Shown here: in pieces, positions 8,588 through 33,436 of the stretch
Layout of the letters: each line of letters opens with the position of its first letter
Numbering within the stretch: the stretch's first letter is position 1
Assembly: GCA_018238545.1 (NCBI GenBank)
Contig: JABCTC010000001.1
Location: 88,977 to 152,976, forward strand
From: Candidatus Heimdallarchaeota archaeon
Lineage (GTDB): Archaea; Asgardarchaeota; Heimdallarchaeia; Heimdallarchaeales; Heimdallarchaeaceae
Direction of reading: 5' to 3'
Length of the DNA: 64,000 nt
Made by a program: the position numbers and the translations under genes
Notes under the pieces: model-generated
The model's input: only the letters and a program-made list of their open reading frames with translations
What the model was told of the DNA's origin: nothing
Database searches by the model: none

Positions 8588-9595
8588 GTGGAAACTCTAG
8601 TAATTGTTTTAATTGTTATATCGGTTATATTGGTTATCCTTATACTCCTACGAATTGCTTTTGTTAGATGGAAAAAATCCGCATCTAGAGTTATGGACGA
8701 TGGAGATGTAATGGAAACAGCTATGGGGAAGCTGCATTACAAACTCTCTGGAAAGGGTCCTGTGTTATTTTTTATGCATGGCGGACCGGGAGGAATAGAT
8801 CAGGCTATCTTAATTGATAGTATGATTGAGCTAGGTTATTCAATACTGAGTGTTTCAAGGCCCGGATATCTAAGAACCCCCTTTGTTCCTCTATCTTATG
8901 AGGAGCAAGTAGATCATTATGTGGAATTGCTGGACAAATTAGAAATCGATAAGGTTGTTCCCATGGGATACTCAGCTGGTGGTCCTCTTGCACTCAACTT
9001 TGCTAATAAATACCCCGAGAGAACTCATGCTCTTATTATGGAAGCTGGTGTAAGTACCGAATATAATATGCCAAGTGGAGCACCGGATTCAATTTGGATG
9101 AAACTCTTTCAGAGTAAGGGTATACAAGATTTCTTGAGCTGGCTTACCGTAATATTTGTTAGAATAGCATTCAAAATGACATTCAAGAGTATAATCAGAC
9201 TGGAAACCTCACTTGACAAAGAAAGCATAAAGAAATTTACTGATCTGGTTTCAAATGATAAGGAGAGAAGAGAGTGGATAATGAGCTTTATGGATACAAC
9301 TGTTCCGATGAGTCTAAGAAAACTTGGCTTGAATCATGATATAGACCTCTTATTTTCCATCGAGAATATTCCAGTTGATAATATAAGCGCAAAAGCATTA
9401 TTAATCTATAGTAGAGACGATAATGATGTCAAGTGGTTAAATGCTGAATATCTCGAAAGCAATCTCAAAGATTTCGAGTTAATGGAGACACACGGTGGTC
9501 ATTTCATGTGGGTAGGAGAGGATATGGATAAAATAAAAAATAAAAGAATTGAATTTTTAAAATCAATAAATTTCGCAAAATTTATAGAAATTTGA
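8588..9595 (+). CDS. Membrane-anchored alpha/beta hydrolase
   Basis: N-terminal TM helix, HGGPGG, GYSAGG nucleophile elbow, C-terminal GGH. Confidence 0.9.
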   Translation: METLVIVLIVISVILVILILLRIAFVRWKKSASRVMDDGDVMETAMGKLHYKLSGKGPVLFFMHGGPGGIDQAILIDSMIELGYSILSVSRPGYLRTPFVPLSYEEQVDHYVELLDKLEIDKVVPMGYSAGGPLALNFANKYPERTHALIMEAGVSTEYNMPSGAPDSIWMKLFQSKGIQDFLSWLTVIFVRIAFKMTFKSIIRLETSLDKESIKKFTDLVSNDKERREWIMSFMDTTVPMSLRKLGLNHDIDLLFSIENIPVDNISAKALLIYSRDDNDVKWLNAEYLESNLKDFELMETHGGHFMWVGEDMDKIKNKRIEFLKSINFAKFIEI

Positions 9596-10008: not shown

Positions 10009-11049
10009 TCAAGCTCTAGATGATGGAAAAAACAATTTATTTTTCACACTTAAAGCTACCAAATGACCAATCATAGATATACCTACACCACATAAAATAT
10101 CTATAATAAAATGATGATTGAAATAGATTGCTCCTAGGAATATGGCCATACTGTAGGGAATAGTTAAATATATTGATTTTTTCCATTTTTGATGAATACA
10201 CAAGGTTGCTGATAGTGCGTAAACAGCATGAACACTAGGGAATGCTGCAAAAGAGTTCTGTTCAAATGTTCCATAATACCACGAAAAAATATTCACTCCC
10301 AAAATTTCATCAATTCTTCCTAAACCAGCTGTTATGTTTTGACTATAATCTATTGCAATATCGGGTTGAACAAAACCATATTGACTGATATACCAAGGAG
10401 CTGCAGCGGGAAAGCTCACAAAGAGAATAAAGGATAGTAATGTTACAGTATAGAATGTAATTACGAGAAATTTGAAGTTTTTCTCGTCTCCTTTAAAATA
10501 CAAGTATAATCCAAAAACCAAGGGAACAAAGGCATGTAATAGATAAATTCCACCTAAAATAAGATCAATAGGAATAGAATATAAAGTTGAATGAACCCAT
10601 TGATTAGGGGTCATTCCCCCAAAAATCCATCCAAATAATTTCATCTCTAAGAGATAGATTTCTTCTGTAAGAACACGTGGATACAGCAAATTTTCTTTTA
10701 TTTTTGACATTAACTCATAAGTAATCCAAAGTATGAAAAAAGGCAAACTATTAATTAATAATGTAATAGGGGTTTTGGAGGTTTTAAATTTCATCAAATA
10801 TAGAATAGCAGAAATAACAGCAAAAAAGAAAAAAACAACCCCCGATAATAATGAAATGAATACAAATCCTTCTCCATTTAATATAATTAAAATAGTATCA
10901 AAAAAAAGATAAGCTATAGCAAAATAAATATGATACTGTCCGCTTTTAAAATCTCGCAATATTTTCTCTGATAACAATGTTTGTGTAAGTGTTATTTCTT
11001 CCTCTATTGGTTTAGTTTCTCTACGTATTTTTGATGCCAATTCTATCAC
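10009..11049 (-). CDS. PAP2-superfamily, Aur1/inositol-phosphorylceramide-synthase-like membrane phosphotransferase (copy 1)
   Basis: PAAAPWY, FAAFPSVHA and HHFIIDILCG motifs; several TM helices. Confidence 0.8.
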   Translation of the reverse strand: MIELASKIRRETKPIEEEITLTQTLLSEKILRDFKSGQYHIYFAIAYLFFDTILIILNGEGFVFISLLSGVVFFFFAVISAILYLMKFKTSKTPITLLINSLPFFILWITYELMSKIKENLLYPRVLTEEIYLLEMKLFGWIFGGMTPNQWVHSTLYSIPIDLILGGIYLLHAFVPLVFGLYLYFKGDEKNFKFLVITFYTVTLLSFILFVSFPAAAPWYISQYGFVQPDIAIDYSQNITAGLGRIDEILGVNIFSWYYGTFEQNSFAAFPSVHAVYALSATLCIHQKWKKSIYLTIPYSMAIFLGAIYFNHHFIIDILCGVGISMIGHLVALSVKNKLFFPSSRA

Positions 11050-11108
11050 CTTTTAATATTACTTTACTTATAAAAAAATAAAAAAAATAAAAAATAATCA
11101 GTACTTCT

Positions 11109-11210
11109 CTAATATTCTTCTTCTTTTACTGATCTTTTGGTTATTCGTTTAACGCTTGTTTTTAAAGATTCTATAACTTGCTTTGTTTTTGCTTTTAATC
11201 TGTCTAACAT
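11109..11210 (-). CDS. Putative 33-aa basic peptide MLDRLKAKTKQVIESLKTSVKRITKRSVKEEEY
   Basis: ATG overlaps the radical SAM stop (TAATG), GGAGGA upstream; first 17 codons identical in a second copy. Confidence 0.55.
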   Translation of the reverse strand: MLDRLKAKTKQVIESLKTSVKRITKRSVKEEEY

Positions 11211-12667
11211 TAGTATTCCTCCTTTTTAATCGATTTATAATTAGTTTCTTCATCATCAATACGTTCCTCAGCACCATCCCACTCAACGTCCCAGTACCGG
11301 GGGGGTTTTAAATCAACAAATTTTGATAATTTATTAGATTCACGTCTAATTCTATCAGCTACTGGTGCCCACTCTTTGGCTGCTTGTTGACATTTATCTG
11401 TAAGATCATCAACTGATTCTTCATCAATCATCTGAGTAGATTTAGCCTTTGATTTATGCACCATCACTTTCAGTTTATCAGGATTATCAAGAAGAGGACA
11501 TGGACGTAAGTAGTTATTATTGAATGGTTGTCTACGATTATATTGTCTAAATAATGGAGATTTCAAAGATTCCAACAAACTTACATCTTTGATATTAACA
11601 TTAGAATAGTGTATAAAGGCACATGGTTCCACATCTCCATTTGCGTTGATGTGTAGGTAGCTTCTTCCTCCTGCTATACACCCTCTTGCATAATCTCCAT
11701 CGTTCCAAAAATCAATTAAGAAAATAGATTTTGTCTCTCTAAATTTCCTAACTTGATGAAACATAAATTCTCTCTGTTCTGGAGTACTCATTAATTCTGG
11801 CAAAGCATCTTTTCCAAGTGGCATATATGTAAATAACCATCCATAACTTGCACCCATCTCAATCATGTAGTCAATAAATTCTTCTGAACCTACAACATCC
11901 GTATTCTTATTGTGATAACAAGTAGAAATACCAAACAAAACACGATGCTCCTTAAGAATCTTCATGGCTCTTATTACCTTTTGATAAGTCCCCTCGCCTC
12001 GACGAAAATCAGTTTCTTCTTCAAAACCTTCCACACTTATCGCCAGAGTAAGATTTCCAACTTCAGCTAATGCAATAGCAAATTCTTCATCTACCAAAGT
12101 TCCATTTGTGAAAGCCAAAAAGACGCAATCTTGATGTTTTTTTGCTAACTTTAGAAGATCGTTCTTTCTAATAGTTGGTTCTCCACCTGAATATAGATAC
12201 CAATAGATTCCCAAATCTTTCCCTTCCATTATAATTCTATCCATTAACCTATAACTTAAGTTATCTGTTTTATCGTATTCTGCGGCCCAACAACCTTTAC
12301 AGGTTAAATTGCACGCAGATGTAGGATCCATAAGAATGGCTATAGGGACATTACACTGGTTTTCTCTCATTACTTCACGAGTTCTTTCAATTCCAACAAG
12401 TGCTGCATTCACTCCAAGATTCCGTATGAGGAGCTTCATAGTATTTGGATTTATATTTTCAAACGACTCTAGAAGAAGCTTATACATAGGATTGCTTTCA
12501 TCACGAAAAGCTTTGAGATGTTTCTTTTGATTTGGATCCGATGAAAATCGTTCAACACTTTTGATAAGTCTTGGAATATTTCTTTTTGGGTTTTTTATCG
12601 CAAATCTAGTTGCTATATTTAATGCCAATCTGTTAATTATTAAATTTTTACTCTTCATGCGTATCAT
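11210..12667 (-). CDS. Radical SAM protein with SPASM/Twitch-type C-terminal domain (copy 1)
   Basis: DPTSACNLTCKGCWA (CxxxCxxC), SGGEP, CIAGGRSYLHINANGDVEPC...CP. Confidence 0.9.
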   Translation of the reverse strand: MIRMKSKNLIINRLALNIATRFAIKNPKRNIPRLIKSVERFSSDPNQKKHLKAFRDESNPMYKLLLESFENINPNTMKLLIRNLGVNAALVGIERTREVMRENQCNVPIAILMDPTSACNLTCKGCWAAEYDKTDNLSYRLMDRIIMEGKDLGIYWYLYSGGEPTIRKNDLLKLAKKHQDCVFLAFTNGTLVDEEFAIALAEVGNLTLAISVEGFEEETDFRRGEGTYQKVIRAMKILKEHRVLFGISTCYHNKNTDVVGSEEFIDYMIEMGASYGWLFTYMPLGKDALPELMSTPEQREFMFHQVRKFRETKSIFLIDFWNDGDYARGCIAGGRSYLHINANGDVEPCAFIHYSNVNIKDVSLLESLKSPLFRQYNRRQPFNNNYLRPCPLLDNPDKLKVMVHKSKAKSTQMIDEESVDDLTDKCQQAAKEWAPVADRIRRESNKLSKFVDLKPPRYWDVEWDGAEERIDDEETNYKSIKKEEY

Positions 12668-12680
12668 CTTTATGTTCGTT

Positions 12681-12745
12681 AAACAAACATTTCAAACGAG
12701 TATTTAAATCTATCGTTTCAAACACTTGTTTCAAACATTTGTATT
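12681..12745. promoter_or_regulatory. Tandem AAACA-N2-TGTTT-type operator array upstream of radical SAM copy 1
   Basis: Repeated tttcaaac units and the inverted repeat aaacacttgttt at 12720-12731; same motif at 20233-20324. Confidence 0.65.
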
Positions 12746-13045
12746 ATGTGTGTCTTGAAATAATTACTTTATACAAAAAACTATAAATTCAATTGAATTA
12801 AAAATTGGGTTAAACATAAGACTTTAAAAAAACTATATATCACAATATTAAAAAGCACGTTTGGACATATTTCAACGTACTTCAGTAAGATCCAAAAATC
12901 TTCAACAGCTCAAAATCATAAAAATTGGAGAACAGATTTTGAAATAAACAGTCTCTAATTTCTAGTTTTGCGATTTTCAAAGAACTGAATAATAACAAAA
13001 GAGAAAAAAATTGATTAAAAAAAGAAATAAGACTAACACATCAGT

Positions 13046-16000
13046 TTAGTCTTTTTTATTCTTGTCCTTTGTATAGTTTCTCTTAACTGTTTCCTTTGAT
13101 ATTCTCCAATATGGCCACCAATTCAGTTTCTTAAGCACCATCATAAGAGCAGGTACAAGAAACAGTCGAACTATTGTAGCATCCAAAAGAACTGCGAACC
13201 CTATAGCAAAACCTATGATTTTTAATGGCCATAACTCTGACAACATCAATGAGAAGAATGATGCTGACATAATAAATCCAGCGCTTAGAATCATTTTTGA
13301 AGTACTTTTTACAGCTTTAAATGTTGCTTCCTTGTCAGTAGCACCTTTCTCTATCTCTTCTTTGATTCGAGAAACAAGAAGAATATCAAAATCCATTCCA
13401 AGACCAAACATTGTTACAAACAGCAGTACAGGTAGAAACCAGATTATTGGCTGACCTAAACCATAATGGAAAACTAGGTTCGTTGCACCTAGACTGACTA
13501 AAACCGATAATAGTATAGTCAGTTCTAATCTAATAGGTGTGAAAAATGAACCAAGTAGAAAGAATAACACGAGGAAAATACCTACAACTGTAAATATAAT
13601 TATTATTGGTGTGTCTTCTACCATCATAGTGTTCAGTTCTGAATAAAGTGCAGTCATCCCAGTAATGTAAATTACTGAATCCTGTAAGGCTAGTTCTGCT
13701 GTAACTGCTGTACCCAGATTTGTGATCAGGTCATGTGCTACATCTAAAGCTTCTTTTCCAAATGGGTCAAGTTCCAGATATATCATCAACATTATTGTGG
13801 TATTATCATCCGAAATGTATCGATGCATTTGTTCTAAGTGAATAGTATCTGTCATCTCTGGTGGAATATATTCGCCATTAGGACGCGTTACCGTATGAAC
13901 GCTAGAAACATTGTCAAAGTTCGTTATAATATGAGATATAATGCTTTCTAGAGCAATTAATTTTGCTTCTTCAGGGAGACCTGTTGATTCATTAAGAGAT
14001 AAGGATTCATTCCATATCAAGAGTACTTGAATTGGTTGCAATTCACTTACAACAAATTCATTAGCTAATATGTTTGATCCAGTTATACTATCCATTGAAC
14101 TAGGAAGTGTTGCAGTTATATCATAGCTTTGCTCACCAGTCACACCAAAATACACAAATGGGCTGGAAACTAGTAAGAAAATGGCAATAACAACTAGAGG
14201 ATACTTCAGAGTAAAGTTTGTCATTCGTTCTAATAGGGGATTACTTTTCTCTGGTTTACTTTCATCGACCTCTTTTTTCTCCTTCTTCTCCTTCTTCTCT
14301 TTCTTACCATTTCTCCCCATTCTTGGCCAATAAATCTTGTCTCCAAGCAAATGTAAAATAACAGGAATCAAAGTTAGTGCTATAAGTAAAGAAATAGCTA
14401 TACCCAATAGTGGACCTAATCCCATTAATCTCAGCAAGGAAAACTTAGAGAATAATAAAGCTCCGAAACCAATCATAACTGTTATACCAGATGTAATTAC
14501 TGATTCGCCAATTTTCTTTGTTGTTTCTACAATTGATTTTTCTTTTGTATCACCTTTTCTTCGTTGTTCTTTATAACGAAAAATCATGAAAATGCAATAA
14601 TCTACACCTGCTCCCATCATTACTATAGACGTAATGATTACGGTATACGAAGACATCATAATAACGTTAGACATTAACATGAACAATGCATTAACAATCA
14701 TTAAACCCATACTAATTGCTATTAAAGGAAAGAAAGGTGTAAATGGTGACAAGAACACAATAACTAGCACTCCTAAAACGAAAAGTATAGACGTTATATC
14801 AGTATTTTCAAAATCAGAAGCCATTACATATTCTAAATCATACAATAATGCAAGCGTCCCAGTCAGATGTATGTCGATAGTTACATCTGTATCACTTTTT
14901 ATTTCAGCTATTTTTGCTCTAATATCTGGTGTGTAGATCCCCAAATCTATTGATTCATCCACGTCTGACAGAAATATAGCAATAACCATAGTTGAATTAT
15001 CTGAACTTATTAAACTGTAGTAAATATCTGCAGGTAAATCAGTTACTATGGTAGGATAAGGCATGATCTGAGCTATTTTCTGATCAACGAGAAGTGAAAA
15101 TTGCTGTATCATCATTGTAGTAACAATATCTAGCATAAATAATGGTGTTTCATAAAGCGAAGTTACCATTCCTTCTACATCAAAATCTTTGAAGAACATC
15201 TCTGGATCAAAATCAAAACCACTTATTGTGAAATTTTCTAGCAACGTTGAAAATGAAGCATTTACAGCTTGAGTTATTGAACTGATTAATGTCTGTTTAT
15301 AAATAATGCTTGTTTCATAATTTTCTTCTCTTAACATATATGCCATTTGAAGAAGTAATTGCTCTTCAGAACCTGGAGGTAGCAAATCAACTAATAGCTG
15401 TCCTGATTGAGTTTTCATACTTGGTTTTAAGGTAGAAAGATTACCTATCACGTTTAGTTGTGAAAGCATTCCTTGTTGAAAATCAGTCAAAATCGGATCA
15501 GAAGTTGCATAATAATCATCAAAGAAAGCATTTTGTGGAATGAAACTTGATAACCGGATGGTATCAAACGTCGCATTCAAAAGCAAGAGATAATTATAAC
15601 TTAGCGAGTTTAAGTAAGGAATTCCGTATTCTGATTCATTATACATTGCTGACATTGAAGCATTCACAACTTGAAATGCTAAAACTGAAGTCATGTTATC
15701 TGCCAAATATGGATCTGCTAGCATCGCTGGAATAACCGGAGCTAATGGAAGAGTTGACATAAGATACATATCTAAAGTAGTATTATCAAACATAGTCCAA
15801 TTATTCATAAGTACATATTCAGTTGAATTGAAAAAACCGTTTGAATATGCATTTGTTTGATTATTTGTATAATAAATGAATTTAGAGAAATCAGACCAAG
15901 CAAATAAGTAGTAAAGAGGAACTTGTTCTAATAAATCTATCAATCCTTTTGTTGTTTCATTTGCTAAGCTGATATAATCATACATCAAAGGAATTTGTTC

Positions 16001-16453
16001 AGTAAATGTAACATTTAGAAAAGTCTGTACCTCATCTAAAGTAACATTGTAAAATGTCTGTAAATCCTCTAGTACCGAATAAATTGATAGAATTGAATCA
16101 ATATAAGGATAGGCTGATTCATCTTCAAAAGTGCTTTCTAAACTCTTCACAAAATTCGTAAAGTTCTGTGATGTTAAGTCTGATTCTTCTAACCCATCAA
16201 TCACTGCTACAAAGCTACTGCTAAATTCAGGAAATTTATCCGCTAAGATATCCAATCCTACACCTGCTGGTGTTTCACCAAGAAACGCTGTTTCGTCAGT
16301 TTCAAGTTTATCACCTATATTTATAGCCCAAGGTGCTGCTACTGATGCAAGTACTATCCAAGTAATTAGGATAAACCATCGATATTTTTCTGTAATTTCC
16401 GCGATTTTTGCGAATACAGATTTACCATTCTTTTTGTTGTTGTTATTTTTCAA
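13046..16453 (-). CDS. MMPL/RND-family transporter with large extracytoplasmic domain
   Basis: Two TM bundles with GAGVDYCIF and GLGMDFDILLVSRIKEE; DATIVRLFLVPA. Confidence 0.9.
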   Translation of the reverse strand: MKNNNNKKNGKSVFAKIAEITEKYRWFILITWIVLASVAAPWAINIGDKLETDETAFLGETPAGVGLDILADKFPEFSSSFVAVIDGLEESDLTSQNFTNFVKSLESTFEDESAYPYIDSILSIYSVLEDLQTFYNVTLDEVQTFLNVTFTEQIPLMYDYISLANETTKGLIDLLEQVPLYYLFAWSDFSKFIYYTNNQTNAYSNGFFNSTEYVLMNNWTMFDNTTLDMYLMSTLPLAPVIPAMLADPYLADNMTSVLAFQVVNASMSAMYNESEYGIPYLNSLSYNYLLLLNATFDTIRLSSFIPQNAFFDDYYATSDPILTDFQQGMLSQLNVIGNLSTLKPSMKTQSGQLLVDLLPPGSEEQLLLQMAYMLREENYETSIIYKQTLISSITQAVNASFSTLLENFTISGFDFDPEMFFKDFDVEGMVTSLYETPLFMLDIVTTMMIQQFSLLVDQKIAQIMPYPTIVTDLPADIYYSLISSDNSTMVIAIFLSDVDESIDLGIYTPDIRAKIAEIKSDTDVTIDIHLTGTLALLYDLEYVMASDFENTDITSILFVLGVLVIVFLSPFTPFFPLIAISMGLMIVNALFMLMSNVIMMSSYTVIITSIVMMGAGVDYCIFMIFRYKEQRRKGDTKEKSIVETTKKIGESVITSGITVMIGFGALLFSKFSLLRLMGLGPLLGIAISLLIALTLIPVILHLLGDKIYWPRMGRNGKKEKKEKKEKKEVDESKPEKSNPLLERMTNFTLKYPLVVIAIFLLVSSPFVYFGVTGEQSYDITATLPSSMDSITGSNILANEFVVSELQPIQVLLIWNESLSLNESTGLPEEAKLIALESIISHIITNFDNVSSVHTVTRPNGEYIPPEMTDTIHLEQMHRYISDDNTTIMLMIYLELDPFGKEALDVAHDLITNLGTAVTAELALQDSVIYITGMTALYSELNTMMVEDTPIIIIFTVVGIFLVLFFLLGSFFTPIRLELTILLSVLVSLGATNLVFHYGLGQPIIWFLPVLLFVTMFGLGMDFDILLVSRIKEEIEKGATDKEATFKAVKSTSKMILSAGFIMSASFFSLMLSELWPLKIIGFAIGFAVLLDATIVRLFLVPALMMVLKKLNWWPYWRISKETVKRNYTKDKNKKD

Positions 16454-16462
16454 AATTTCACC

Positions 16463-17326
16463 TCATTTTTCCCCTATGCAAACAAGAATCTCAGCAAAAT
16501 CGCCTACAAAACTCGATTTAGGAAATATATCTTGCATTAATTCTTGAAAATCCTCTCGTCGAAATTGATTTGAATCTATGTTCAAATCCTTTTTTATGGG
16601 ATTCAAATCCCCAATAAATGAAATCATGCTTTGTTCAAGTATACTATAAAAGTATCTTACTTCAACTAACATAATCCGACCCTTCTTCTTAAGCACTCGT
16701 TGATATTCTCTGAGCAGTTTTTGGTAACATTTTGGTTCATGAAAGCCAAGAGAAAAGAAAGAGATTATGAGTGAGAAAAAGTCATCTTTGAGAGGTATTT
16801 CGTCGTATGTAGATTTTATGGTTTCATATCCCTCCAAGCTGCTATAACTGGAAAAAGACATCTGAAGGTTAAATGGTCTAATATCACTCTCAAGAATCTT
16901 TTGGGTGAATAGTTGTTGAAGGCTTGGATTAGATAAGATCATATCCGGTGCTACAATTGCTAGATTTCCCTTATCAAAATTCTTAAAGTTTTCTTCAATA
17001 ATCATCCCGATTTCAATAATGAACCTGTCAACTATTGTTGGAATAAAATAATCAAAAGCTGTTTTCATTGATTCTGTTATAACCATGCGACCTTCGTCTG
17101 TAACATTCACAAAAGCTTTATGACCTGCACCTTCACGTTTTTCAATTGATATCAGCCCTTCTTTTTTTAATCTGTCGAACATTAGATAGAAAGAACTAGA
17201 GGGTTTATCTTTTAAAAAAGGAAAAATATTCTGTAATTCTTTAATTATTGCAGTTTTATACTTTTCCTTCTTCAAATTAACAATCTTAAGTATCTCTAAT
17301 TCTTTCCAATTAAGAGAAGGTTTCAT
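16463..17326 (-). CDS. PadR-like winged-helix regulator fused to a class I SAM-methyltransferase-like domain
   Basis: N-terminal SSFYLMFDRLKKEGLI...VTDEGR; C-terminal IPLKDDFFSLIIS...LREYQRVLKKKGRIMLVE. Confidence 0.7.
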   Translation of the reverse strand: MKPSLNWKELEILKIVNLKKEKYKTAIIKELQNIFPFLKDKPSSSFYLMFDRLKKEGLISIEKREGAGHKAFVNVTDEGRMVITESMKTAFDYFIPTIVDRFIIEIGMIIEENFKNFDKGNLAIVAPDMILSNPSLQQLFTQKILESDIRPFNLQMSFSSYSSLEGYETIKSTYDEIPLKDDFFSLIISFFSLGFHEPKCYQKLLREYQRVLKKKGRIMLVEVRYFYSILEQSMISFIGDLNPIKKDLNIDSNQFRREDFQELMQDIFPKSSFVGDFAEILVCIGEK

Positions 17327-17358
17327 TGAGTAGAAAAGTTTTAGCAGTTATAAAAACA

Positions 17359-17379
17359 TTTCCATATTTCTGGAAATAT
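17359..17379. promoter_or_regulatory. Palindromic operator candidate upstream of the PadR-like/MMPL operon
   Basis: TTTCCA-N6-TGGAAA overlapping ATATTTC-TG-GAAATAT, next to a TATA-like box. Confidence 0.4.
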
Positions 17380-17564
17380 ATTTACGGATGTATGAGTAAT
17401 TTTTTCCATTTTTTAGTTTAAACGATTCGGTTAAATAAGGTGGCCAACTAAAAAATTTAATGATATATAATCAATGTATTTTATCAGAAATTTAACAAAG
17501 TGTATTGTTCAAATGAGAGTCTTGCTATATCTTATCGAAGGATAATCATATTTTATATTAGCAT

Positions 17565-18617
17565 CTATGACTTGAGAAATTTCAGCTTAGGGAATATACT
17601 GATGTTCTTTTTTAAACATAATGCTACAATATAACTAAGCGTTGATATCCTAATACCACACAAAATATCGACAATAAAATGGTGATTGAAATAGATAGCT
17701 CCTAGAAATATGGCTAGACAATAAGGAATCGTTAAATATAGTGATTTTTTCCATTTTTGACGAATACAAAGGGTTGCTGATAATGCGTAAACAGCATGAA
17801 CACTTGGGAATGCTGCAAAAGAGTTTTGTTCAAATGTTCCATAATACCACGAAAAAAGATTCACTCCTGTAATCTCGTCGATTCTTCCTAAACCAGCTGT
17901 TATATCTTGTGTATAATCTACTGCAATATCAGGTTGAGTAAAACCATATTGATCAATATACCAAGGAGCTGCTGAAGGAAAAATCATAAAAAGTATAAAA
18001 GCGAGTAATGTCGCAGTGTAGAAATTTATTGCAAGGAATTTGAGATTTTCCCGATCATTTCTTATATATAAGTATAACCCAAAAACCATTGGAATCAAAG
18101 CATGTAACAAATAAACGCCCCCAAATATAATATCTGTATAAACAGAATTGAAGGTCATATGGAACCAGTGGTTAGGAGTCATCCCGCCAAAAATCCACCC
18201 AAATAGTTTCATCTCTAAGTTATAGAAAACTTCTGTATAAACGCGTGGATAGATTAAGTGCTCTTTTACATTTGCCATTAATTCATAGGTACACCAAATT
18301 ATGAAAAAAGGAAGACTATTAATTAATAAGGTAATAGGGGATTTAGAGTTATTGGGTTTTAACAAATAAATAACAGCAGAAAGAACCACAATTGAAATAA
18401 AAACAATTCCTGATAATAAGGAAAAACCCAAAAATCCGTCCCCATTAATAACTAGTAAAACAATAGCAAAAAGTAGATAAGAAATAGCGAAAAAAATGTG
18501 AAAATACCCCTCTCTAAACTCTTGAATTATCTTCTCTAATAACGATATTTTTACGATAGTTGTTGTCTTGTCTATAGGTTTATTTCTTCCAACTGTTTCA
18601 GGTTCCATTACGACCAC
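17565..18617 (-). CDS. PAP2/Aur1-like membrane phosphotransferase (copy 2)
   Basis: Close paralog of 10009-11049 with the same catalytic H/H/D motifs. Confidence 0.8.
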   Translation of the reverse strand: MVVMEPETVGRNKPIDKTTTIVKISLLEKIIQEFREGYFHIFFAISYLLFAIVLLVINGDGFLGFSLLSGIVFISIVVLSAVIYLLKPNNSKSPITLLINSLPFFIIWCTYELMANVKEHLIYPRVYTEVFYNLEMKLFGWIFGGMTPNHWFHMTFNSVYTDIIFGGVYLLHALIPMVFGLYLYIRNDRENLKFLAINFYTATLLAFILFMIFPSAAPWYIDQYGFTQPDIAVDYTQDITAGLGRIDEITGVNLFSWYYGTFEQNSFAAFPSVHAVYALSATLCIRQKWKKSLYLTIPYCLAIFLGAIYFNHHFIVDILCGIRISTLSYIVALCLKKNISIFPKLKFLKS

Positions 18618-18684
18618 TTCTTAATGTTAATTTAATAAAAAAAAATGAAAGAACTATCAGTAATTCACTAATATCCAGCTTTTG

Positions 18685-18771
18685 CTACTGATTGCTTTTT
18701 TTCTCTCTCTTAATTCTTGATTTTAAAGATTCTATAACTTGCTTTGTTTTTGCTTTTAATCTGTCTAACAT
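18685..18771 (-). CDS. Putative 28-aa basic peptide MLDRLKAKTKQVIESLKSRIKREKKSNQ (copy 2, possibly frameshifted in an A-run)
   Basis: 61-bp block identical to 11160-11220; removing one A gives a ...KKQSVAKAGY* end colinear with copy 1. Confidence 0.5.
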   Translation of the reverse strand: MLDRLKAKTKQVIESLKSRIKREKKSNQ

Positions 18772-18786
18772 TAGTATTCCTAATAT

Positions 18787-20220
18787 TTAATGATCTTTAT
18801 TGGAATCCTCCCAAACTTCCTCAGTACCATCCCAATTTTTATCCCAGTATCGAGGTGGTTTCGAATTTACAAAATTTGATAACTTGTTAGATTCACATCG
18901 AATTCTATCAGCTACTGGTGCCCAATTCTTAGCTACTTTTTGACATTTATCAGTAAGATTATCAACAGATTCTACTTCAATCATATGTGTAGATCGCGCA
19001 TTTGATTCATGCACCATTTCTTTCAATTTATCAGGAATATCAAGAAGTGGACACACGCGTAAATAGTTTTTATTGAATGGTTGATGTTTGTTAAACTGCT
19101 TGAACAATGGCGATTTCAAAGATTCCAATAAGCTTACATCTTTGATATTAACATTTGAATAATGGATAAAGGCACATGGTTCAACATCTCCATTTGCATT
19201 AATATGTAGATAACTTCTTCCGCCAGCAATACACCCTCTCGCATAGTCTCCATCATTCCAAAAATCAATTAAGAAAACAGGTTTTGTTTCTCTAAATTTT
19301 CGAACCTGATTAAACATAAATTCTCTTTGTTCTGGAGTACTCATTAGCTCAGTTTTAGCATCTTTTCCAATTGGTATATATGTAAAAAGCCATCCATAAC
19401 TTGCTCCCATATCAATCATATAATCGATAAATTTTTCTGATCCCATAACGTCCACATTCTTATTATGGTAACAAGAAGAAAATCCAAACATGACACGGTG
19501 TTTCTTAAGCAGTTTCATGGAGTTTATTACCTTTTGATAAGTACCCTTACCTCGACGAAAATCTGTTTCTGCTTCAAAACCTTCCACACTTATTGCTAAA
19601 GTGAAATTTCCAACACTAGCTAAAGCTTCAGCGAATTCTTCATCTACAAGAGTTGCATTTGTAAATGCCAAGAAGAAGCAGTCTTGATGTTTTTTCGCCA
19701 ATTTTAATAGATCATTCTTTCTGATTGTTGGTTCTCCACCTGAATATAGGTACCAATAAATCCCTAGGTCTTTTCCTTCTTGTATGATCCTATCCATTAA
19801 CTCAAAACTTAAATTATCTGTCTTCTCATAATCTGCAGCCCAGCAACCTGTACAGTTCAGATTACAAGAGGATGTTGGATCCATCAGAATAGATAGAGGA
19901 ACATTACACTGGTGTTCTCTCATCGCTTTGCGAGACGTTTCTACTCCAGTCAGAAAAGTATTTACACCTAGATTCCTTACGAATAGTTTCATAGTCTTTG
20001 GATTTATATTTTTAAAGGAATCTATAAGAAACTTATTCATTGGTTTGTCTTCATCCTGAAGAGATTGGAGCGCTTTCTTTTGATTAGGATTTGATGCAAA
20101 TCGTTCAACGACTTTAATCATCTTTGGAATATTTTTCTCTGGATTCCTTATGGCATATCTAGTTGCTAAATTTAAGAGAACACCATTAATTTTGTTTTTT
20201 GCATTTATCATAGCTATCAC
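18787..20220 (-). CDS. Radical SAM protein with SPASM/Twitch domain (copy 2)
   Basis: DPTSSCNLNCTGCWA; close paralog of 11210-12667. Confidence 0.9.
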   Translation of the reverse strand: MIAMINAKNKINGVLLNLATRYAIRNPEKNIPKMIKVVERFASNPNQKKALQSLQDEDKPMNKFLIDSFKNINPKTMKLFVRNLGVNTFLTGVETSRKAMREHQCNVPLSILMDPTSSCNLNCTGCWAADYEKTDNLSFELMDRIIQEGKDLGIYWYLYSGGEPTIRKNDLLKLAKKHQDCFFLAFTNATLVDEEFAEALASVGNFTLAISVEGFEAETDFRRGKGTYQKVINSMKLLKKHRVMFGFSSCYHNKNVDVMGSEKFIDYMIDMGASYGWLFTYIPIGKDAKTELMSTPEQREFMFNQVRKFRETKPVFLIDFWNDGDYARGCIAGGRSYLHINANGDVEPCAFIHYSNVNIKDVSLLESLKSPLFKQFNKHQPFNKNYLRVCPLLDIPDKLKEMVHESNARSTHMIEVESVDNLTDKCQKVAKNWAPVADRIRCESNKLSNFVNSKPPRYWDKNWDGTEEVWEDSNKDH

Positions 20221-20232
20221 GTTTTAAGACAC

Positions 20233-20324
20233 AAACAATTGTTTCAAACAATTATTTAAACATATTGCTTTCAAACAACTGTTTAAATACGGTGTTTCAA
20301 ACATAAGTTTTAAATATCTGTTTG
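20233..20324. promoter_or_regulatory. Array of ~7 AAACA-N2-4-TGTTT-like operators between radical SAM copy 2 and the divergent TetR gene
   Basis: aaacaattgttt (20233-20244), aaacaactgttt (20273-20284) and degenerate units with a 12-15 bp period. Confidence 0.7.
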
Positions 20325-20483
20325 ATTAGACTTATTTGTCGTATTATAATTGTTTTCATTGCAATAATAATAGCCAAAATATCAAATCTGTAGAGAAAAT
20401 ATATAATATTAGAGGTAAATAGTATATTTGAACAAGCTTGAACAAGCTTAAGAATTGATTGGTTCAGAAATAAACTTGAGTAA

Positions 20484-21092
20484 TTGCTAGATATTAAATT
20501 AAATGGAGAATTAACTTTGAAAGAAAAAATTTCAAAAAAGGATAAAATCATCAACACAACACTTAAACTTATTGCTGAAAAGGGTAATTTAGATTTCACA
20601 ATAAGGGAGATTGTTTTAAATGCAGATGTTAATATCGCCTCGGTTAACTACTATTTTGGCACAAAAAAGAAATTGATTCAAGAAATAGAGAAGAAATTCA
20701 GTAAAAAATATGCTGAATATGAAAATATTCTAAAAGATACTCAAATTACCCCAAGAGAACGTCTTCTCAAGTGGGCTAATTCTTTAACTGAATACATGGT
20801 GAGTAACCCAGGAGTAATTTCGATTATGTGCAATAAAATATTTTTATCTGTAGATTTTAACAGTAATCTAGAATTATCTTTGCAAAAAACCAATAAGTAC
20901 TTAGTTCGAATTATTAAAGAAATCACAAATATAAATGATGAAGAAATTATTCAATTTAAATTGGTCAAATTAAATGCAGATCTTTTCTATCCTTTGCTTT
21001 TCATTAGAGATTTTGTAAAACTGTTTGGATTTTCTATCCAAAACCATGAAAGCCGAAGGAAATATATCAAAGCAGTTATAGATTCAATTTAA
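20484..21092 (+). CDS. TetR/AcrR family transcriptional regulator
   Basis: FTIREIVLNADVNIASVNYYFGTKKKL helix-turn-helix. Confidence 0.9.
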   Translation: MLDIKLNGELTLKEKISKKDKIINTTLKLIAEKGNLDFTIREIVLNADVNIASVNYYFGTKKKLIQEIEKKFSKKYAEYENILKDTQITPRERLLKWANSLTEYMVSNPGVISIMCNKIFLSVDFNSNLELSLQKTNKYLVRIIKEITNINDEEIIQFKLVKLNADLFYPLLFIRDFVKLFGFSIQNHESRRKYIKAVIDSI

Positions 21093-21125
21093 ATTGAAAA
21101 CAACAATAAAAATCTTGGTGTTTAA

Positions 21126-22430
21126 ATGACAAAGGTATCAAAAGAAGAAGTTCAATATTTAGCTTTTGAGGGTGGGGGCGGAAAAGGTGTAGCATATATT
21201 GGTGCTCTAGAAGTCATGAAGGAGCTAGGTATTATATCTTATTATAATAAAGAAAAAGAAAGTAAAATTTATAGAAGAATCAATACTGACAAAATCAAAG
21301 GTGTTGCAGGAACATCTGTAGGTTCAGTTGTAGCTTTGCTTGTAGCTTGTGGATATTCACCTGAAGAAATGCAAGAAATGCTGATGAAGAAAATAGGTAT
21401 AAATATTCTTGACACAGTAGAATTCGGGAAAATGCCTACTATTTATACAGAGGAGTATCAAGACATAGTTATTCAAGATCCAAGATTTAAAGATATTGAG
21501 AAATTCATGAAAGCTTCATGGTTAGAATATATTAAATCAGAAGATAAGAGTATAAGTAATTTATTGGAAATACCTGTTAATCGTTTACAAAGTGGAGGTC
21601 TGAAATTTTTTTCATTGATCTTAAAAGGTTTCTTTAGTTATGAATCGAAAAAAACTTACTCTAAAGATTCGTCAATTAAAAATAATCTTATCAACATTAA
21701 GGAATTAGTTCATTCAGAAACAATGAGTCCAGCATTAAAAAAAGTTTTAGCTGATCCTATTCATTCATTTAATAGTTTAAAATACGAATATGGGTTATTC
21801 TTAGGTAAGACAGCAAGAGACATGTTTGATTCATGGATTGAACAAAAGTCTGGAATACAAAACTGTACATTTAAAATGTTTCAAAAGGAGTTTAATATAG
21901 ATTTAGTTATACCTGCTGTTAGCGTAAATTCAAAAGAGCTATTCTATTTCAGAAATAATAGAAAGTGGAAAGATTTATGTGTAGCAGATGCAGTAAGAAT
22001 GTCAATAAACATACCTTTCTTGTTTAAACCTGTGTTAATGAAGAAAACAAAAAAGGGAATAAGCTCTGTTACAGATGAAATTCATTTAGCTAATTTTATG
22101 ATTGATGGAGGTGCAATAAACAATCTCCCTATACATGCATTTGATAAAAAAAGTTCTTCAAAGTTAAATCCTTCAGTCGTTGGATTTTCTCTAGTACCGT
22201 ATAAAAAAGCAAAGACAACAGAAATTAATTCCATAAATCAGTATATCGGGGATATAAGTTATATAATCCTAAACAATGCAACAAATCTTCAGATTCTACA
22301 AGAAGAAGATAGAGATCAGATTGTAGAATTAGATACTAAGGACGTGAGTATTTTTGATTTCTCATTTGAAGAGATACCAGAAGAAGTAAAACGGGAGTCT
22401 AGATCTAGAACATTAGAATATTTTTCGTGA
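21126..22430 (+). CDS. Patatin-like phospholipase
   Basis: GGGGKG, GTSVG and DGG motifs. Confidence 0.9.
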   Translation: MTKVSKEEVQYLAFEGGGGKGVAYIGALEVMKELGIISYYNKEKESKIYRRINTDKIKGVAGTSVGSVVALLVACGYSPEEMQEMLMKKIGINILDTVEFGKMPTIYTEEYQDIVIQDPRFKDIEKFMKASWLEYIKSEDKSISNLLEIPVNRLQSGGLKFFSLILKGFFSYESKKTYSKDSSIKNNLINIKELVHSETMSPALKKVLADPIHSFNSLKYEYGLFLGKTARDMFDSWIEQKSGIQNCTFKMFQKEFNIDLVIPAVSVNSKELFYFRNNRKWKDLCVADAVRMSINIPFLFKPVLMKKTKKGISSVTDEIHLANFMIDGGAINNLPIHAFDKKSSSKLNPSVVGFSLVPYKKAKTTEINSINQYIGDISYIILNNATNLQILQEEDRDQIVELDTKDVSIFDFSFEEIPEEVKRESRSRTLEYFS

Positions 22431-22714
22431 TTGCATACCTTTCTGAAATGATTAAAAAATTAATAAGATAATTCATTGCGTATTTTTCCTTTATATTTCT
22501 AAGGAAAAGGAATCTGCTGAAGAGAAAATACAGCGAGATAATATCCTGGGAAAGATGAATTAAGTTTGAAGATAGTTATTGAGAAAAAATAGACAAAAAG
22601 GTAATTCCTACCCTTGTTTATCTGATGAAATCTTCTTAGTAAACCAATATAAGAATCAAGTGTCAGATAAAATTGTTTTGAGTAAACAGGCTATAATTTA
22701 ATGATTACTTATAC

Positions 22715-23629
22715 TTAATTCCAATATTCATCATCTGTATAGTCAGATATTACTCCTATTGATTCTGGACCAAGGTGTGATAGAACTGAACCTCCACTTT
22801 GAACTAATTCGATTTCCATTTCTGGATATCTCTTTTTGATAATATCCGCCATATTGTTTGCATAATCGAGTCTGCTTCCATAGACTATTGCTATATTCTT
22901 TGGAACTTTAGTAAAATCATCAGTACTCAGCTTTAGTGATTCTTCTAGTCCTTTTTGTACATCAGTTGTTGAGCCAGCTGTCACAACGTTTCCTTCTTCG
23001 TTCATGGTTACAATAGGTTTCTTTCTTAACACTGCTCCCATAAGGAATTTGGAAGTTCCAAGTCTACCTCCCTTCCACAAGTATCTTAAGGTTGGAAGGA
23101 GAATGATTGTTTTAATCTTCAAGGCTTGTTGAGTTAATATTTCAGCTATCTCTTCAGCACTGTGTTTCCCTTTTTTGATCAATTTGAGAGCCATTCTTAT
23201 TAAGAAAACCTCTGGAGCAGATGCAGATAAGGAACTTACAACGTGAATATTTACATCCACAAATTGTTTCATTACTTGTTTTGCAGCTAGACGAGCACTA
23301 TTGATTGATCCACTTAAACCTGCACTTACTGTGACAACAACAATGTCCTTTGTTCCCTCTTTGATATGCTCCATATAGGCATCTGTGTAGTCTTTTGGAT
23401 TTGGTTGAGAGGTTTTTGGAACAAAAGAATAAAGATTTAATTTTGGTATGTGTAAAAATGCTTTTTCGTCTTCAAACAATTTATAGTACGCATCTCTATC
23501 AAAATTCTCATCTTCTCTTAGCTCTTCTTCATGAACATACATGTACATGCAAGCTATCTTAACATTGTTTTCTTTAGCAAAATCCCAAGGTAAATCAGAA
23601 CCACTGTCAGTAACTAAACCAATTGTCAT
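22715..23629 (-). CDS. DegV family fatty-acid-binding protein
   Basis: VTDSGSDLP, KTSQPNP, SAGLSGS, YLWKGGR, HLGP. Confidence 0.9.
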   Translation of the reverse strand: MTIGLVTDSGSDLPWDFAKENNVKIACMYMYVHEEELREDENFDRDAYYKLFEDEKAFLHIPKLNLYSFVPKTSQPNPKDYTDAYMEHIKEGTKDIVVVTVSAGLSGSINSARLAAKQVMKQFVDVNIHVVSSLSASAPEVFLIRMALKLIKKGKHSAEEIAEILTQQALKIKTIILLPTLRYLWKGGRLGTSKFLMGAVLRKKPIVTMNEEGNVVTAGSTTDVQKGLEESLKLSTDDFTKVPKNIAIVYGSRLDYANNMADIIKKRYPEMEIELVQSGGSVLSHLGPESIGVISDYTDDEYWN

Positions 23630-32349: not shown

Positions 32350-32361
32350 TTTTCCACCTTT

Positions 32362-33222: not shown

Positions 33223-33340
33223 CTCAAGAAATAGTTTTTAGTTAAAAAGCCCGTCTTGTTCGCTAAAAATCTTTCTTTTTTATTGCGGAGAAAACTACTA
33301 TAATCTATTTAATATATCTTGAGAACTGTTTTCTGCCTTT

Positions 33341-33436
33341 AGGCAACCCCTTGCCCGTGAGGCTGAGTAGTGGCAGTTAGAACAATTAATTGAGTTACGC
33401 CACTAACTCTCCTCCATCCACCAGGGCATTTTTTTT
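33341..33436 (+). ncRNA. Putative small hairpin RNA or leader upstream of lat
   Basis: GC-rich island; TGCCC/GGGCA, GTG/CAC, AGG/CCT and GAGT-AGTGGC/GCCACT-ACTC stems; TTTAATAT ~30 bp upstream; T-tract immediately after. Confidence 0.5.

What the first reader, a model, noticed from the sequence alone, without database searches (positions are those of the whole stretch)
10009..23629. Duplicated radical SAM + Aur1/IPC-synthase-like module with MMPL, TetR, patatin and DegV: candidate fatty-acyl lipid remodelling system in an archaeon
Seen: the unit [operator array - radical SAM/SPASM - small ORF - PAP2] occurs twice (10009-12745 and 17565-20324), flanking an MMPL exporter and a PadR-methyltransferase-like fusion, followed by a divergent TetR, a patatin and DegV. 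Established: Aur1/Ipt1-type PAP2 enzymes transfer phospho-headgroups between lipids; MMPL proteins export lipids; patatins hydrolyse acyl esters; DegV binds fatty acids; some radical SAM enzymes couple lipid tails (bacterial Mss, archaeal Tes). Inference: this is a pathway that releases, senses, C-C couples or otherwise modifies, re-headgroups and exports ester-type lipids in an organism expected to have isoprenoid ether membranes, which bears on the lipid divide in Asgard archaea. Whether the radical SAM belongs to the Mss clade is unverified.
Basis: partly seen in the sequence, partly recalled or inferred. Interest (0 to 1): 0.75.

Follow-up and report, generated by a model that had tools for sequence, protein, structure and literature searches.

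The report
Duplicated Mss–Aur1 lipid operon, Heimdallarchaeon
An Asgard (Heimdall) archaeon carries two copies of an operon that joins a bacterial-type lipid tail-coupling radical SAM enzyme to a yeast-Aur1-like lipid head-group transferase, under a TetR switch and beside a lipase; Mss homologues in Asgard archaea were already reported, so only this operon architecture and its link to head-group transfer are new.

Summary
The unit [operator array – radical SAM – about 30-aa ORF – PAP2_3] occurs twice, and both copies are under purifying selection. The copies flank an MMPL transporter and a PadR/methyltransferase-like gene, followed by a divergent TetR, a patatin and a DegV.

The radical SAMs are 57% and 55% identical over 441 residues to UniProt A0A4R3KZK4. 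PMC13274423 names that protein the Mss of Keratinibaculum paraultunense, a producer of iso-diabolic-acid membrane-spanning lipids. So they belong to the Mss-homologue family, not to Tes or RiPP maturases. Mss and Ger homologues in Asgard archaea were already reported in 2022.

The PAP2 keeps the Aur1 signature motifs and the His-His-Asp triad. It belongs to a narrow Heimdallarchaeaceae lineage.

- **Conserved core:** TetR–mss, in 45 of 80 bacterial loci and in Asgard.
- **Three genomes of one genus only:** mss–small ORF–PAP2 with TetR–patatin.
- **Not conserved:** MMPL, PadR-MT and DegV.

The genome also has three PlsY, two PlsA/Ger-like, two MIPS and 14 DegV genes. No PlsC, PlsX or FakA was found.

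Best reading, at about 50%: a TetR-gated acyl-lipid remodelling module. Verdict: a new variant of a known kind, of moderate interest.

The parts
10009..11049 (-). PAP2_a: Aur1/IPC-synthase-like PAP2_3 membrane phosphotransferase (346 aa)
   Evidence: PF14378 scores 68 bits against a cut-off of 27. NCBIfam PI-dihydroceramide synthase scores 128 bits, below its 480 cut-off. The alignment to yeast AUR1 (9vj3) keeps FPAAAPWY, GLGRIDEILGVN, FPSVH and HHFIIDI.
11109..11210 (-). Small ORF a: 33 aa, basic amphipathic helix with an acidic tail. Its ATG overlaps the rSAM_a stop codon.
   Evidence: It has an AGGAGG site. The ORF is kept in unit b and in G026 and G034 with conservative replacements. A 61-nt block is identical between units a and b.
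11210..12667 (-). rSAM_a: Mss-homologue radical SAM (485 aa) with an N-terminal helical domain, a CX3CX2C motif and a twitch-like auxiliary-cluster region
   Evidence: It is 57% identical over 441 aa to K. paraultunense A0A4R3KZK4. The structure model has pLDDT 82.5.
12680..12745 (-). Operator-like array a: TGTTTGAAAC repeats directly upstream of rSAM_a
13046..16453 (-). MMPL/RND-type transporter (1135 aa), lying between the two units
   Evidence: PF03176 at E = 2.7e-87. All NCBIfam MMPL, HAE3 and HpnN hits are below their cut-offs. It is absent from the homologous loci of G026 and G034.
16463..17326 (-). PadR-like wHTH fused to a degenerate class-I methyltransferase-like domain (287 aa)
   Evidence: PadR scores 23.8 bits, below its 27 cut-off. 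Methyltransf_11 scores 24.7 bits and covers only profile positions 24-94, so the glycine-rich SAM loop is not matched.
17565..18617 (-). PAP2_b: second Aur1-like PAP2_3 (350 aa)
   Evidence: It is 65% identical to PAP2_a. dN/dS is 0.33.
18685..18771 (-). Small ORF b (28 aa)
18787..20220 (-). rSAM_b: second Mss homologue (477 aa)
   Evidence: It is 77% identical to rSAM_a and 55% to A0A4R3KZK4. dN/dS is 0.16. The b lineage is sister to (a + G026) in the tree.
20235..20324 (.). Operator-like array b, in the shared intergenic region between rSAM_b and the divergent TetR
20484..21092 (+). TetR-family regulator (202 aa), divergent from rSAM_b
   Evidence: PF00440. Orthologues of 58-62% identity sit beside mss in G026, G034 and G133.
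21126..22430 (+). Patatin-like phospholipase (434 aa), co-directional with TetR
   Evidence: PF01734. The GGGGKG, GTSVG and DGG motifs are present. An orthologue of about 80% identity follows TetR in G026 and, as a fragment cut by the contig end (91 aa aligned), in G034.
22715..23629 (-). DegV/FakB-like fatty-acid-binding protein (304 aa); membership of the module is doubtful
   Evidence: PF02645 at E = 1.4e-51. It is one of 14 DegV genes in the genome. G026 has a GDPD gene at this position instead.

Best explanation
This is a TetR-gated module for remodelling acyl (bacterial-type) glycerolipids. It is built around a horizontally acquired Mss-type radical SAM enzyme.

Proposed working:
1. The TetR binds the TGTTTGAAAC arrays that overlap the promoters of both mss operons and of its own tetR-patatin transcript. 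A hydrophobic ligand, such as a fatty acid or acyl lipid, releases it.
2. The Mss homologue (radical-SAM cluster plus one twitch-type auxiliary cluster) abstracts a hydrogen atom from a lipid tail. It then forms a tail-to-tail C-C bond, giving membrane-spanning (diabolic-acid-type) lipids, as shown for the T. ethanolicus and T. maritima enzymes.
3. The co-translated Aur1-like PAP2_3 uses its His-His-Asp triad to move a phospho-alcohol head group from a donor phospholipid onto a lipid hydroxyl. The head group is probably phosphoinositol, since the genome has two MIPS genes. A plausible acceptor is a diacylglycerol-type end of the substrate or product, which would set the head groups of the bipolar lipid.
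4. The roughly 30-aa basic amphipathic peptide is an accessory subunit or membrane tether.
5. The patatin supplies or trims acyl chains.
6. MMPL and DegV are later, lineage-specific additions (export or flipping, fatty-acid carriage).

Shown here: gene content, duplication, purifying selection, family placement, motif conservation, and the operator motif with its conservation.

Inferred: every substrate, every reaction and all of the regulation.
For: Family placement of the radical SAM:
- 57% and 55% identity over 441 aa to the K. paraultunense 'Mss'.
- CX3CX2C, GGE and the three C-terminal cysteines are invariant across 17 family members.
- The family's spread across anaerobic phyla matches that published for Mss.

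Operon linkage:
- mss–small ORF–PAP2 is kept twice in the window and once each in G026 and G034, together with the divergent TetR–patatin.
- dN/dS is 0.16 and 0.33 at dS of about 0.7-0.9, so both copies are maintained.

Regulation:
- The TetR–mss pairing recurs in 27+18 of 80 bacterial loci and in G133.
- The operator motif is confined to the two upstream regions and is conserved in relatives.

Aur1-like PAP2:
- The Aur1 motifs and the His-His-Asp triad are aligned to yeast AUR1.
- Two MIPS genes are present.

Acyl-lipid context:
- The patatin is intact.
- GDPD sits next to patatin in G026.
- The genome has three PlsY, two PlsA/Ger-like and 14 DegV genes.
- GC content across the region is like its surroundings, so this is not a recent import or contamination.
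Against: - No direct comparison with the experimentally confirmed Mss proteins was possible. The link is transitive, through an uncharacterised homologue in a lipid-producing species.
- The original authors note that archaeal homologues have 'low homology' to the confirmed enzymes. They also note that Mss homologues do not always coincide with membrane-spanning lipids in Clostridia.
- PAP2 is never next to mss in bacteria (0 of 80 loci). PAP2_3 homologues in other Heimdallarchaeaceae genera stand alone.
- PlsC, PlsX and the FakA C-domain were not found in a genome that is 92% complete. A full diacyl-phospholipid pathway is therefore not evident.
- There are no expression data.
- From my own memory, not checked here: cultured Asgard archaea are reported to have only isoprenoid lipids.
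Confidence: 0.5

Rival explanations
1. The Mss homologue has been recruited to archaeal isoprenoid ether lipids. It would cross-link or couple phytanyl or biphytanyl chains, in the manner of Tes or Gms. The Aur1-like enzyme would exchange phosphoinositol between archaetidylinositol and archaeol- or GDGT-type acceptors. The patatin would then be an unrelated neighbour or act on foreign lipids.
For: - The host is an archaeon, and two MIPS genes are present.
- The PAP2_3 lineage is native to Heimdallarchaeaceae and is present in genera without mss.
- No PlsC or PlsX was found.
- Gms, another SPASM/twitch radical SAM, forms C-C bonds in GDGTs (PMC11214058).
- The Mss authors raised and discussed this option.
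Against: - At 55-60% identity to bacterial proteins across the whole length, including the regions around the clusters, a change of substrate class seems unlikely.
- The conserved partners (patatin, GDPD in G026, DegV) act on acyl esters.
- The distribution is patchy, 7 of 399 Asgard genomes, which fits an accessory trait rather than core membrane synthesis.
Confidence: 0.2
2. Only TetR–mss is a functional unit. PAP2, the small ORF, patatin, MMPL and DegV are neighbours with no shared pathway. The duplication simply copied a stretch of DNA.
For: - The TetR–mss pair alone is what recurs in bacteria and in G133.
- PAP2 homologues elsewhere have unrelated neighbours.
- MMPL, PadR-MT and DegV are not conserved in position.
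Against: - mss, the small ORF and PAP2 are separated by 0-170 bp on one strand.
- This arrangement is kept in four units that have diverged to dS of about 0.8.
- Within the genus, PAP2 occurs only in the three genomes that have mss.
Confidence: 0.2
3. This is a RiPP system. The radical SAM/SPASM enzyme matures the adjacent small peptide, and MMPL exports it.
For: - A small conserved ORF lies beside a SPASM-annotated radical SAM.
- The nearest solved structures are RiPP maturases: SkfB, SuiB and others.
Against: - The peptide has no Cys and almost no aromatic residues, and only 8 invariant positions.
- It lies downstream of the enzyme.
- The enzyme family is 55-60% conserved across thousands of bacteria, and the window's small ORF gave no tblastn match in any of the 80 bacterial loci, a weak test for so short a query.
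- Only three auxiliary cysteines are invariant.
- All RiPP-maturase NCBIfam scores are far below their cut-offs.
Confidence: 0.03

Closest known systems
Bacterial membrane-spanning lipid synthase Mss (T. ethanolicus WP_129545148.1, T. maritima Tmari_0825; Sahonero-Canavesi et al. 2022, PMC13159169) and its homologue in K. paraultunense (A0A4R3KZK4; PMC13274423)
   Same: - It belongs to the same radical SAM family: 57% identity to A0A4R3KZK4 over the full length.
- It has CX3CX2C plus a twitch-like C-terminal cluster site.
- Its hosts are anaerobes.
- It co-occurs with PlsA/Ger-like genes.
- Asgard homologues were already noted by those authors.
   Different: - Here it is duplicated.
- It is translationally coupled to a roughly 30-aa ORF and followed by an Aur1-like PAP2_3.
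- Its TetR is divergent rather than co-directional, and is not orthologous to the bacterial ones.
- It has a C-terminal extension (PPRYWD...) that the aligned bacterial members lack and that the other close (Asgard-clade) homologues aligned share.
- Its activity is untested.
Inositol phosphorylceramide synthase Aur1 (yeast; PDB 9vj3, 9ivc) and Bacteroides phosphoinositol-dihydroceramide synthase (NCBIfam NF052609)
   Same: - It has the PAP2_3 fold family.
- The conserved PAAPPWY-like, RID..LG, PSxH and HHxxxD motifs are present, which include the His-His-Asp catalytic triad.
- A source of inositol phosphate (MIPS) is present in the genome.
   Different: - It scores 128 bits against the equivalog cut-off of 480.
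- phmmer gives only E = 6e-9 to the yeast enzyme.
- No Kei1-like partner was found, and no ceramide pathway was searched for.
- It is encoded in an operon with a lipid radical SAM enzyme, which the literature search here did not find reported.
Archaeal tetraether synthase Tes/GDGT-MAS and GMGT synthase Gms
   Same: These are radical SAM enzymes that make C(sp3)-C(sp3) bonds between lipid tails. Gms is also of the SPASM/twitch type.
   Different: - No sequence hit to the solved Tes was found at E <= 1e-3.
- Tes does not appear among the top fold matches listed.
- The best NCBIfam neighbours are NirJ2 and AhbD at under 100 bits.
- The family's distribution is bacterial.
FakB/DegV–FakA fatty acid kinase with PlsY
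   Same: The DegV domain scores well above its cut-off. Three PlsY-like genes are present in the genome.
   Different: - The FakB1 equivalog cut-off is not reached (106 against 350).
- No FakA C-domain or PlsX was found.
- There are 14 DegV paralogues, so the adjacent one is not specifically tied to the module.

Membership tests
Mss (membrane-spanning lipid synthase) | Radical SAM core with CX3CX2C and a SAM-binding GGE motif | tested here: met
   C119/C123/C126 and S160-G-G-E-P164 are invariant in a 17-member alignment. PF04055 scores 67-70 bits.
Mss (membrane-spanning lipid synthase) | Authors' homology criterion: E <= 1e-50 (or 1e-30) and >= 30% identity to the confirmed T. ethanolicus or T. 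maritima Mss | tested here: inconclusive
   The confirmed sequences could not be obtained. As a proxy, the window proteins are 57% and 55% identical over 441 aa to A0A4R3KZK4. The authors selected that protein by their criterion and named it Mss.
Mss (membrane-spanning lipid synthase) | Forms diabolic or iso-diabolic acids when expressed anaerobically | not testable with these tools
   This needs an experiment.
Mss (membrane-spanning lipid synthase) | Co-occurrence with a Ger/PlsA-type ester reductase, as in the proposed brGDGT route | tested here: met
   There are two ORFs, of 1030 and 1211+ aa, each with BcrAD_BadFG (two copies in one of them), DUF2229 and a weak HGD-D match.
Aur1/IPC synthase family (PAP2_3) | PAP2_3 domain above the Pfam cut-off | tested here: met
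   68.2 and 68.4 bits against a cut-off of 27.
Aur1/IPC synthase family (PAP2_3) | Catalytic His (PSxH) and His/Asp (HHxxxD) aligned with yeast AUR1 | tested here: met
   The phmmer alignment to 9vj3 pairs FPSVH with FPSLH and HHFIIDI with HHYFVDL. H274, H312, H313 and D317 are invariant in 15 homologues.
Aur1/IPC synthase family (PAP2_3) | Equivalog-level match to a characterised enzyme (PI-dihydroceramide synthase NF052609) | tested here: not met
   128 bits against a cut-off of 480.
Aur1/IPC synthase family (PAP2_3) | Availability of an inositol phospholipid donor and a ceramide acceptor | tested here: inconclusive
   Two MIPS genes are present. Ceramide synthesis genes were not searched for.
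RiPP radical SAM/SPASM maturase with precursor peptide | Full 7-Cys SPASM motif, a score above a maturase model cut-off, and a modifiable precursor peptide | tested here: not met
   Only C330, C349 and C390 are invariant in the C-terminal domain. The best maturase model scores 60-67 bits against cut-offs of 265-650. The small ORF has no Cys and only 8 invariant residues.
Tes / GDGT-MAS | Detectable sequence or top-ranking fold similarity to the solved tetraether synthase | tested here: not met
   It is absent from the phmmer PDB hits at E <= 1e-3 and from the Foldseek matches listed.
FakB (DegV) fatty-acid kinase subunit | DegV domain together with a FakA partner in the genome | tested here: not met
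   DegV scores 176 bits and FakB1 106 bits against a cut-off of 350. The FakA-like_C domain was not found in the 92%-complete genome; only two short Dak2 ORFs are present.
TetR-regulated operon | TetR HTH protein next to repeated palindromic sites in the controlled promoter | tested here: met
   TetR_N is present. TGTTT-N-AAACA-type sites occur in arrays in both mss upstream regions and in relatives. Binding itself is untested.

The most novel reading that the evidence does not exclude
A sublineage of Heimdallarchaeaceae makes bipolar, non-isoprenoid (acyl or alkyl) membrane-spanning inositol phospholipids. It would do so by coupling a bacterial Mss, acquired by gene transfer, to a native Aur1-type head-group transferase and a dedicated micro-protein. 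This would be a working 'mixed-membrane' pathway in the archaeal group closest to eukaryotes. The Aur1-like enzyme would use a non-ceramide acceptor.
Probability: 0.15. Interest if true: 0.8.

Novelty: new variant of a known kind. Interest (0 to 1): 0.5.

Why it matters
Mss and Ger homologues in Asgard archaea have been cited as hints that relatives of the eukaryotic host could make bacterial-type or mixed membranes. Those reports were bare homology hits. This locus adds an operon context that can be tested:
- a regulator with a recognisable operator;
- an Aur1-like head-group transferase translationally linked to Mss;
- a conserved micro-protein;
- an acyl-ester lipase.

The host genome also has unusually many fatty-acid-binding DegV proteins.

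The locus gives concrete constructs for anaerobic expression and lipidomics: rSAM, with or without the peptide and the PAP2. It also gives a marker set for asking, in enrichments and metatranscriptomes, whether Heimdallarchaeaceae actually make non-isoprenoid membrane-spanning lipids. That question also bears on the sources of brGDGT-type proxies in anoxic sediments. If the module proves inactive or acts on isoprenoids, the lipid-divide argument from Asgard Mss homologues is weakened.

Tried and rejected
Neighbourhoods came instead from the search for related loci, the genome search and the fetch from genomes.
- **Confirmed Mss sequences** (WP_129545148.1, Tmari_0825) could not be fetched. T. 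maritima is only a tally-only control genome, and the Sci Adv supplements are not held. The link was therefore made through A0A4R3KZK4.
- **Fold search** of the rSAM model gave only generic SPASM/twitch and viperin matches, so it does not discriminate.
- **Complex prediction** with rSAM + PAP2 + small ORF gave no answer (score 0.00). This is neither support nor evidence against.
- **Window TetR against the 45 bacterial mss-linked TetRs:** similarity only at the HTH level (about 30% over 65 aa, E >= 3e-4). Co-transfer of the regulator is not supported.
- **RNA structure in the 61-nt block** identical between the copies: rejected. MFE is -2.1 kcal/mol and z = +1.9, less structured than shuffled sequence.
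- **Neighbours of PAP2_3 homologues** in other Heimdallarchaeaceae genera (transposase, QueC, GH113, TFIIB) gave no lipid context.
- **The roughly 350-aa ORFs** between TetR and mss in some Clostridia had no informative family.
- **RiPP reading:** considered and rejected; see the rival explanations.

Full report
**1. What is there**

The window is G000:C43:88977-152976 of a MAG that is 92% complete. Close copies of its proteins are named Candidatus Heimdallarchaeaceae in NCBI.

- Two PAP2_3/PAP2 proteins: 10009-11049 and 17565-18617.
- Two Radical_SAM+SPASM proteins: 11210-12667 and 18787-20220.
- An MMPL transporter: 13046-16453.
- A weak PadR plus Methyltransf_11 protein: 16463-17326.
- A TetR on the plus strand: 20484-21092.
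- A patatin: 21126-22430.
- A DegV: 22715-23629.

The two radical SAMs are 77% identical and the two PAP2s 65%. dN/dS is 0.16 and 0.33 at dS of about 0.9 and 0.7. The duplication is therefore old and both copies are maintained.

GC content across the region matches the rest of the window.

**2. Small ORF and operators**

Between each radical SAM and its PAP2 lies a short ORF of 33 and 28 aa. The first 17 residues are identical (MLDRLKAKTKQVIESLK).
- Three of the four aligned copies have an AGGAGG site upstream (unit b has TTAGGA); in unit a the ATG overlaps the radical SAM stop codon.
- The ORF is kept in two related genomes with conservative replacements such as L/F and K/R.
- A 61-nt block covering the RBS and the first 17 codons is identical between the two units, although the flanking coding DNA is 82-86% identical.
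- The block is not structured as RNA. Local gene conversion is the simplest explanation.

Upstream of both radical SAMs lie arrays of TGTTTGAAAC-like sites, an 11-bp palindrome around a central base.
- All four exact GTTTGAAAC matches in the 64 kb lie there.
- Five of the eleven TGTTTRAAM matches lie there too.
- The motif recurs between mss and tetR in G026 and G034, and in degenerate form in G133.

**3. The radical SAM is an Mss homologue**

The protein has thousands of relatives at 53-61% identity in anaerobic Clostridia, Tissierellia, Spirochaetes, Synergistales, Bacteroidota and others. A 17-member alignment shows invariant C119/C123/C126, a GGE motif and only three invariant C-terminal cysteines (C330, C349, C390). 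That is a twitch-like site, not a full SPASM.

No NCBIfam model comes near its cut-off; the best is NirJ2 at 98 bits against 500. PDB sequence and fold searches give only generic SPASM/twitch enzymes and no Tes.

The literature names Mss proteins as follows:
- T. ethanolicus WP_129545148.1 and T. maritima Tmari_0825 are the experimentally confirmed enzymes.
- UniProt A0A4R3KZK4 (K. paraultunense) and A0A1M5Z5M3 (S. acetigenes) are called Mss in two species shown to make iso-diabolic-acid tetraester lipids.

By exact look-up, A0A4R3KZK4 is P0281, a member of the 90% cluster of P0213. The window proteins are 57% and 55% identical to it over 441 residues.

The tie to the confirmed enzymes is transitive, because I could not obtain their sequences.

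The same authors had already reported Mss and Ger homologues in Asgard archaea, including Heimdallarchaeota, and discussed the lipid-divide implication. They also noted low homology to the confirmed enzymes.

**4. Distribution and history**

Only 7 of 399 Asgard genomes have a match at E <= 1e-60. Within the genus it is 3 of 24 genomes.

In a maximum-likelihood tree:
- The Asgard copies form one well-supported clade (SH-aLRT 96-99).
- The b copy is sister to (a + G026), so the duplication predates those species.
- A 'Methanomicrobiales' MAG copy nests among spirochaete sequences.

**5. Neighbourhood conservation**

In 80 bacterial loci:
- No PAP2, patatin or MMPL relative lies beside mss.
- A TetR-family gene lies upstream in 27+18 loci; those of the larger cluster lie mostly 11-130 bp upstream on the same strand.
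- DegV occurs within 8 kb in 5 loci.

The window TetR shares only HTH-level similarity with these bacterial TetRs.

In same-genus G026 and G034 there is a single unit: patatin<-TetR<->mss–small ORF–PAP2. There is no MMPL, PadR-MT or DegV, and G026 has a GDPD phosphodiesterase after the patatin.

In G133, from another Asgard family, only mss<->TetR is present, next to a PUA gene.

So the core is TetR–mss. The Aur1-like gene, the peptide and the patatin are a genus-level elaboration. MMPL, PadR-MT and DegV are specific to this genome.

**6. The PAP2**

- It scores 128 bits on the Bacteroides PI-dihydroceramide synthase model, whose cut-off is 480.
- Its only PDB sequence hits are yeast AUR1.
- The alignment keeps the Aur1 signatures FPAAAPWY, GLGRIDEILGVN, FPSVH and HHFIIDI, which include the catalytic His-His-Asp.
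- These residues are invariant in 15 homologues.

Close relatives are few. There are 15 word-sharing hits, all those with a name being Heimdallarchaeaceae. Only 7 clusters reach E <= 1e-30 among 1.84 billion representatives. The language-model neighbours are bacterial Aur1/Ipt1-like clusters.

Homologues of 27-46% identity occur in all six genomes of the other four genera of the family, without mss and without lipid neighbours.

**7. Genome context**

The genome is 92% complete.

| Feature | Result |
|---|---|
| PlsY-like | 3 |
| PlsC | none found |
| PlsX | none found |
| FakA C-domain | none found |
| Dak2 | 2 short ORFs |
| PlsA/Ger-like (BcrAD_BadFG + DUF2229 + HGD-D-like) | 2 large proteins |
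| MIPS | 2 |
| DegV | 14; none of the four archaeal control genomes has any |
| Ketoacyl-synthase domains | in one 3377-aa ORF |

The patatin keeps its GGGGKG, GTSVG and DGG motifs.

**8. Reading**

The best-supported explanation is a TetR-gated acyl-lipid remodelling module centred on an Mss-type tail-coupling enzyme. An Aur1-type phospho-head-group transferase is fused to it in one operon. The conserved acyl-ester enzymes (patatin, GDPD) favour acyl over isoprenoid substrates.

That preference, and every reaction step, is inference.

Three rivals remain:
- an isoprenoid substrate;
- mere co-location of PAP2 and the other genes;
- a RiPP system, which is very unlikely.

**9. Verdict**

The radical SAM finding is already in the literature at the level of 'homologues exist in Asgard'. 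The literature search here found no report of the duplicated operon with an Aur1-like enzyme, a micro-protein and a TetR operator. I rate it a new variant of a known kind, with interest 0.5.

Noticed in passing
G000 genome-wide; second copy in the window at 56934-57794 (+): The genome has 14 DegV-family genes, including three within about 6 kb on contig C48. None of the four archaeal control genomes has any. This is an unusual expansion of fatty-acid-binding proteins for an archaeon. No FakA C-domain was detected.
   Followed up: partly
window 11160-11220 and 18721-18781: A 61-nt block covering the RBS and the first 17 codons of the small ORF is identical between the two units. The flanking coding DNA is only 82-86% identical. 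The block is unstructured as RNA, and G026 and G034 differ in it. Local gene conversion is likely, but this is unproven.
   Followed up: partly
window 59145-59912 (+): A 255-aa protein matches Steroid_dh strongly (the 3-oxo-5-alpha-steroid 4-dehydrogenase / polyprenol reductase / TECR family, 180 bits). This is a typically eukaryotic lipid reductase family. It lies about 1.3 kb beyond the second DegV, past an intervening methylase gene.
   Followed up: no
G000:C73:~31895-35485 (-), outside the window: Ketoacyl-synthase domains lie inside a single 3377-aa open frame. This looks like a type-I PKS/FAS-like megasynthase in a Heimdallarchaeon and is a possible source of acyl chains.
   Followed up: no
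L108:675-3767 (G000:C31) and L109:1182-4817 (G000:C73): There are two PlsA/Ger-like proteins with BcrAD_BadFG (two copies in one of them), DUF2229 and a weak HGD-D match. The second runs to the contig end.
   Followed up: partly
G000:C49:25742-26350, C88:14840-15460, C82:12601-13206: Three PlsY-type (G3P_acyltransf) genes are present, while PlsC and PlsX were not found. This is an incomplete bacterial-type phospholipid pathway.
   Followed up: no
L089:13873-14694 (-) (G026): In the same-genus relative, a glycerophosphodiester phosphodiesterase (GDPD) occupies the position convergent to the patatin, where the window has DegV. This fits phospholipid breakdown or scavenging.
   Followed up: no
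L011 (JALHCK010000037.1, 'Methanomicrobiales archaeon' MAG): Its mss homologue nests within spirochaete (Rectinema-like) sequences in the tree. This is either a binning contaminant or a recent transfer.
   Followed up: no
window 7525-8466 (+) and 8588-9595 (+): A beta-lactamase-fold (esterase-like) protein and an alpha/beta hydrolase lie just upstream of unit a. They could belong to the same lipid theme. They were not examined in the relatives.
   Followed up: no
L031 and L032 (Caproiciproducens faecalis): One bacterial genome carries two diverged mss-family paralogues, in different clades of the tree. Duplication of this gene is therefore not unique to the archaeon.
   Followed up: no
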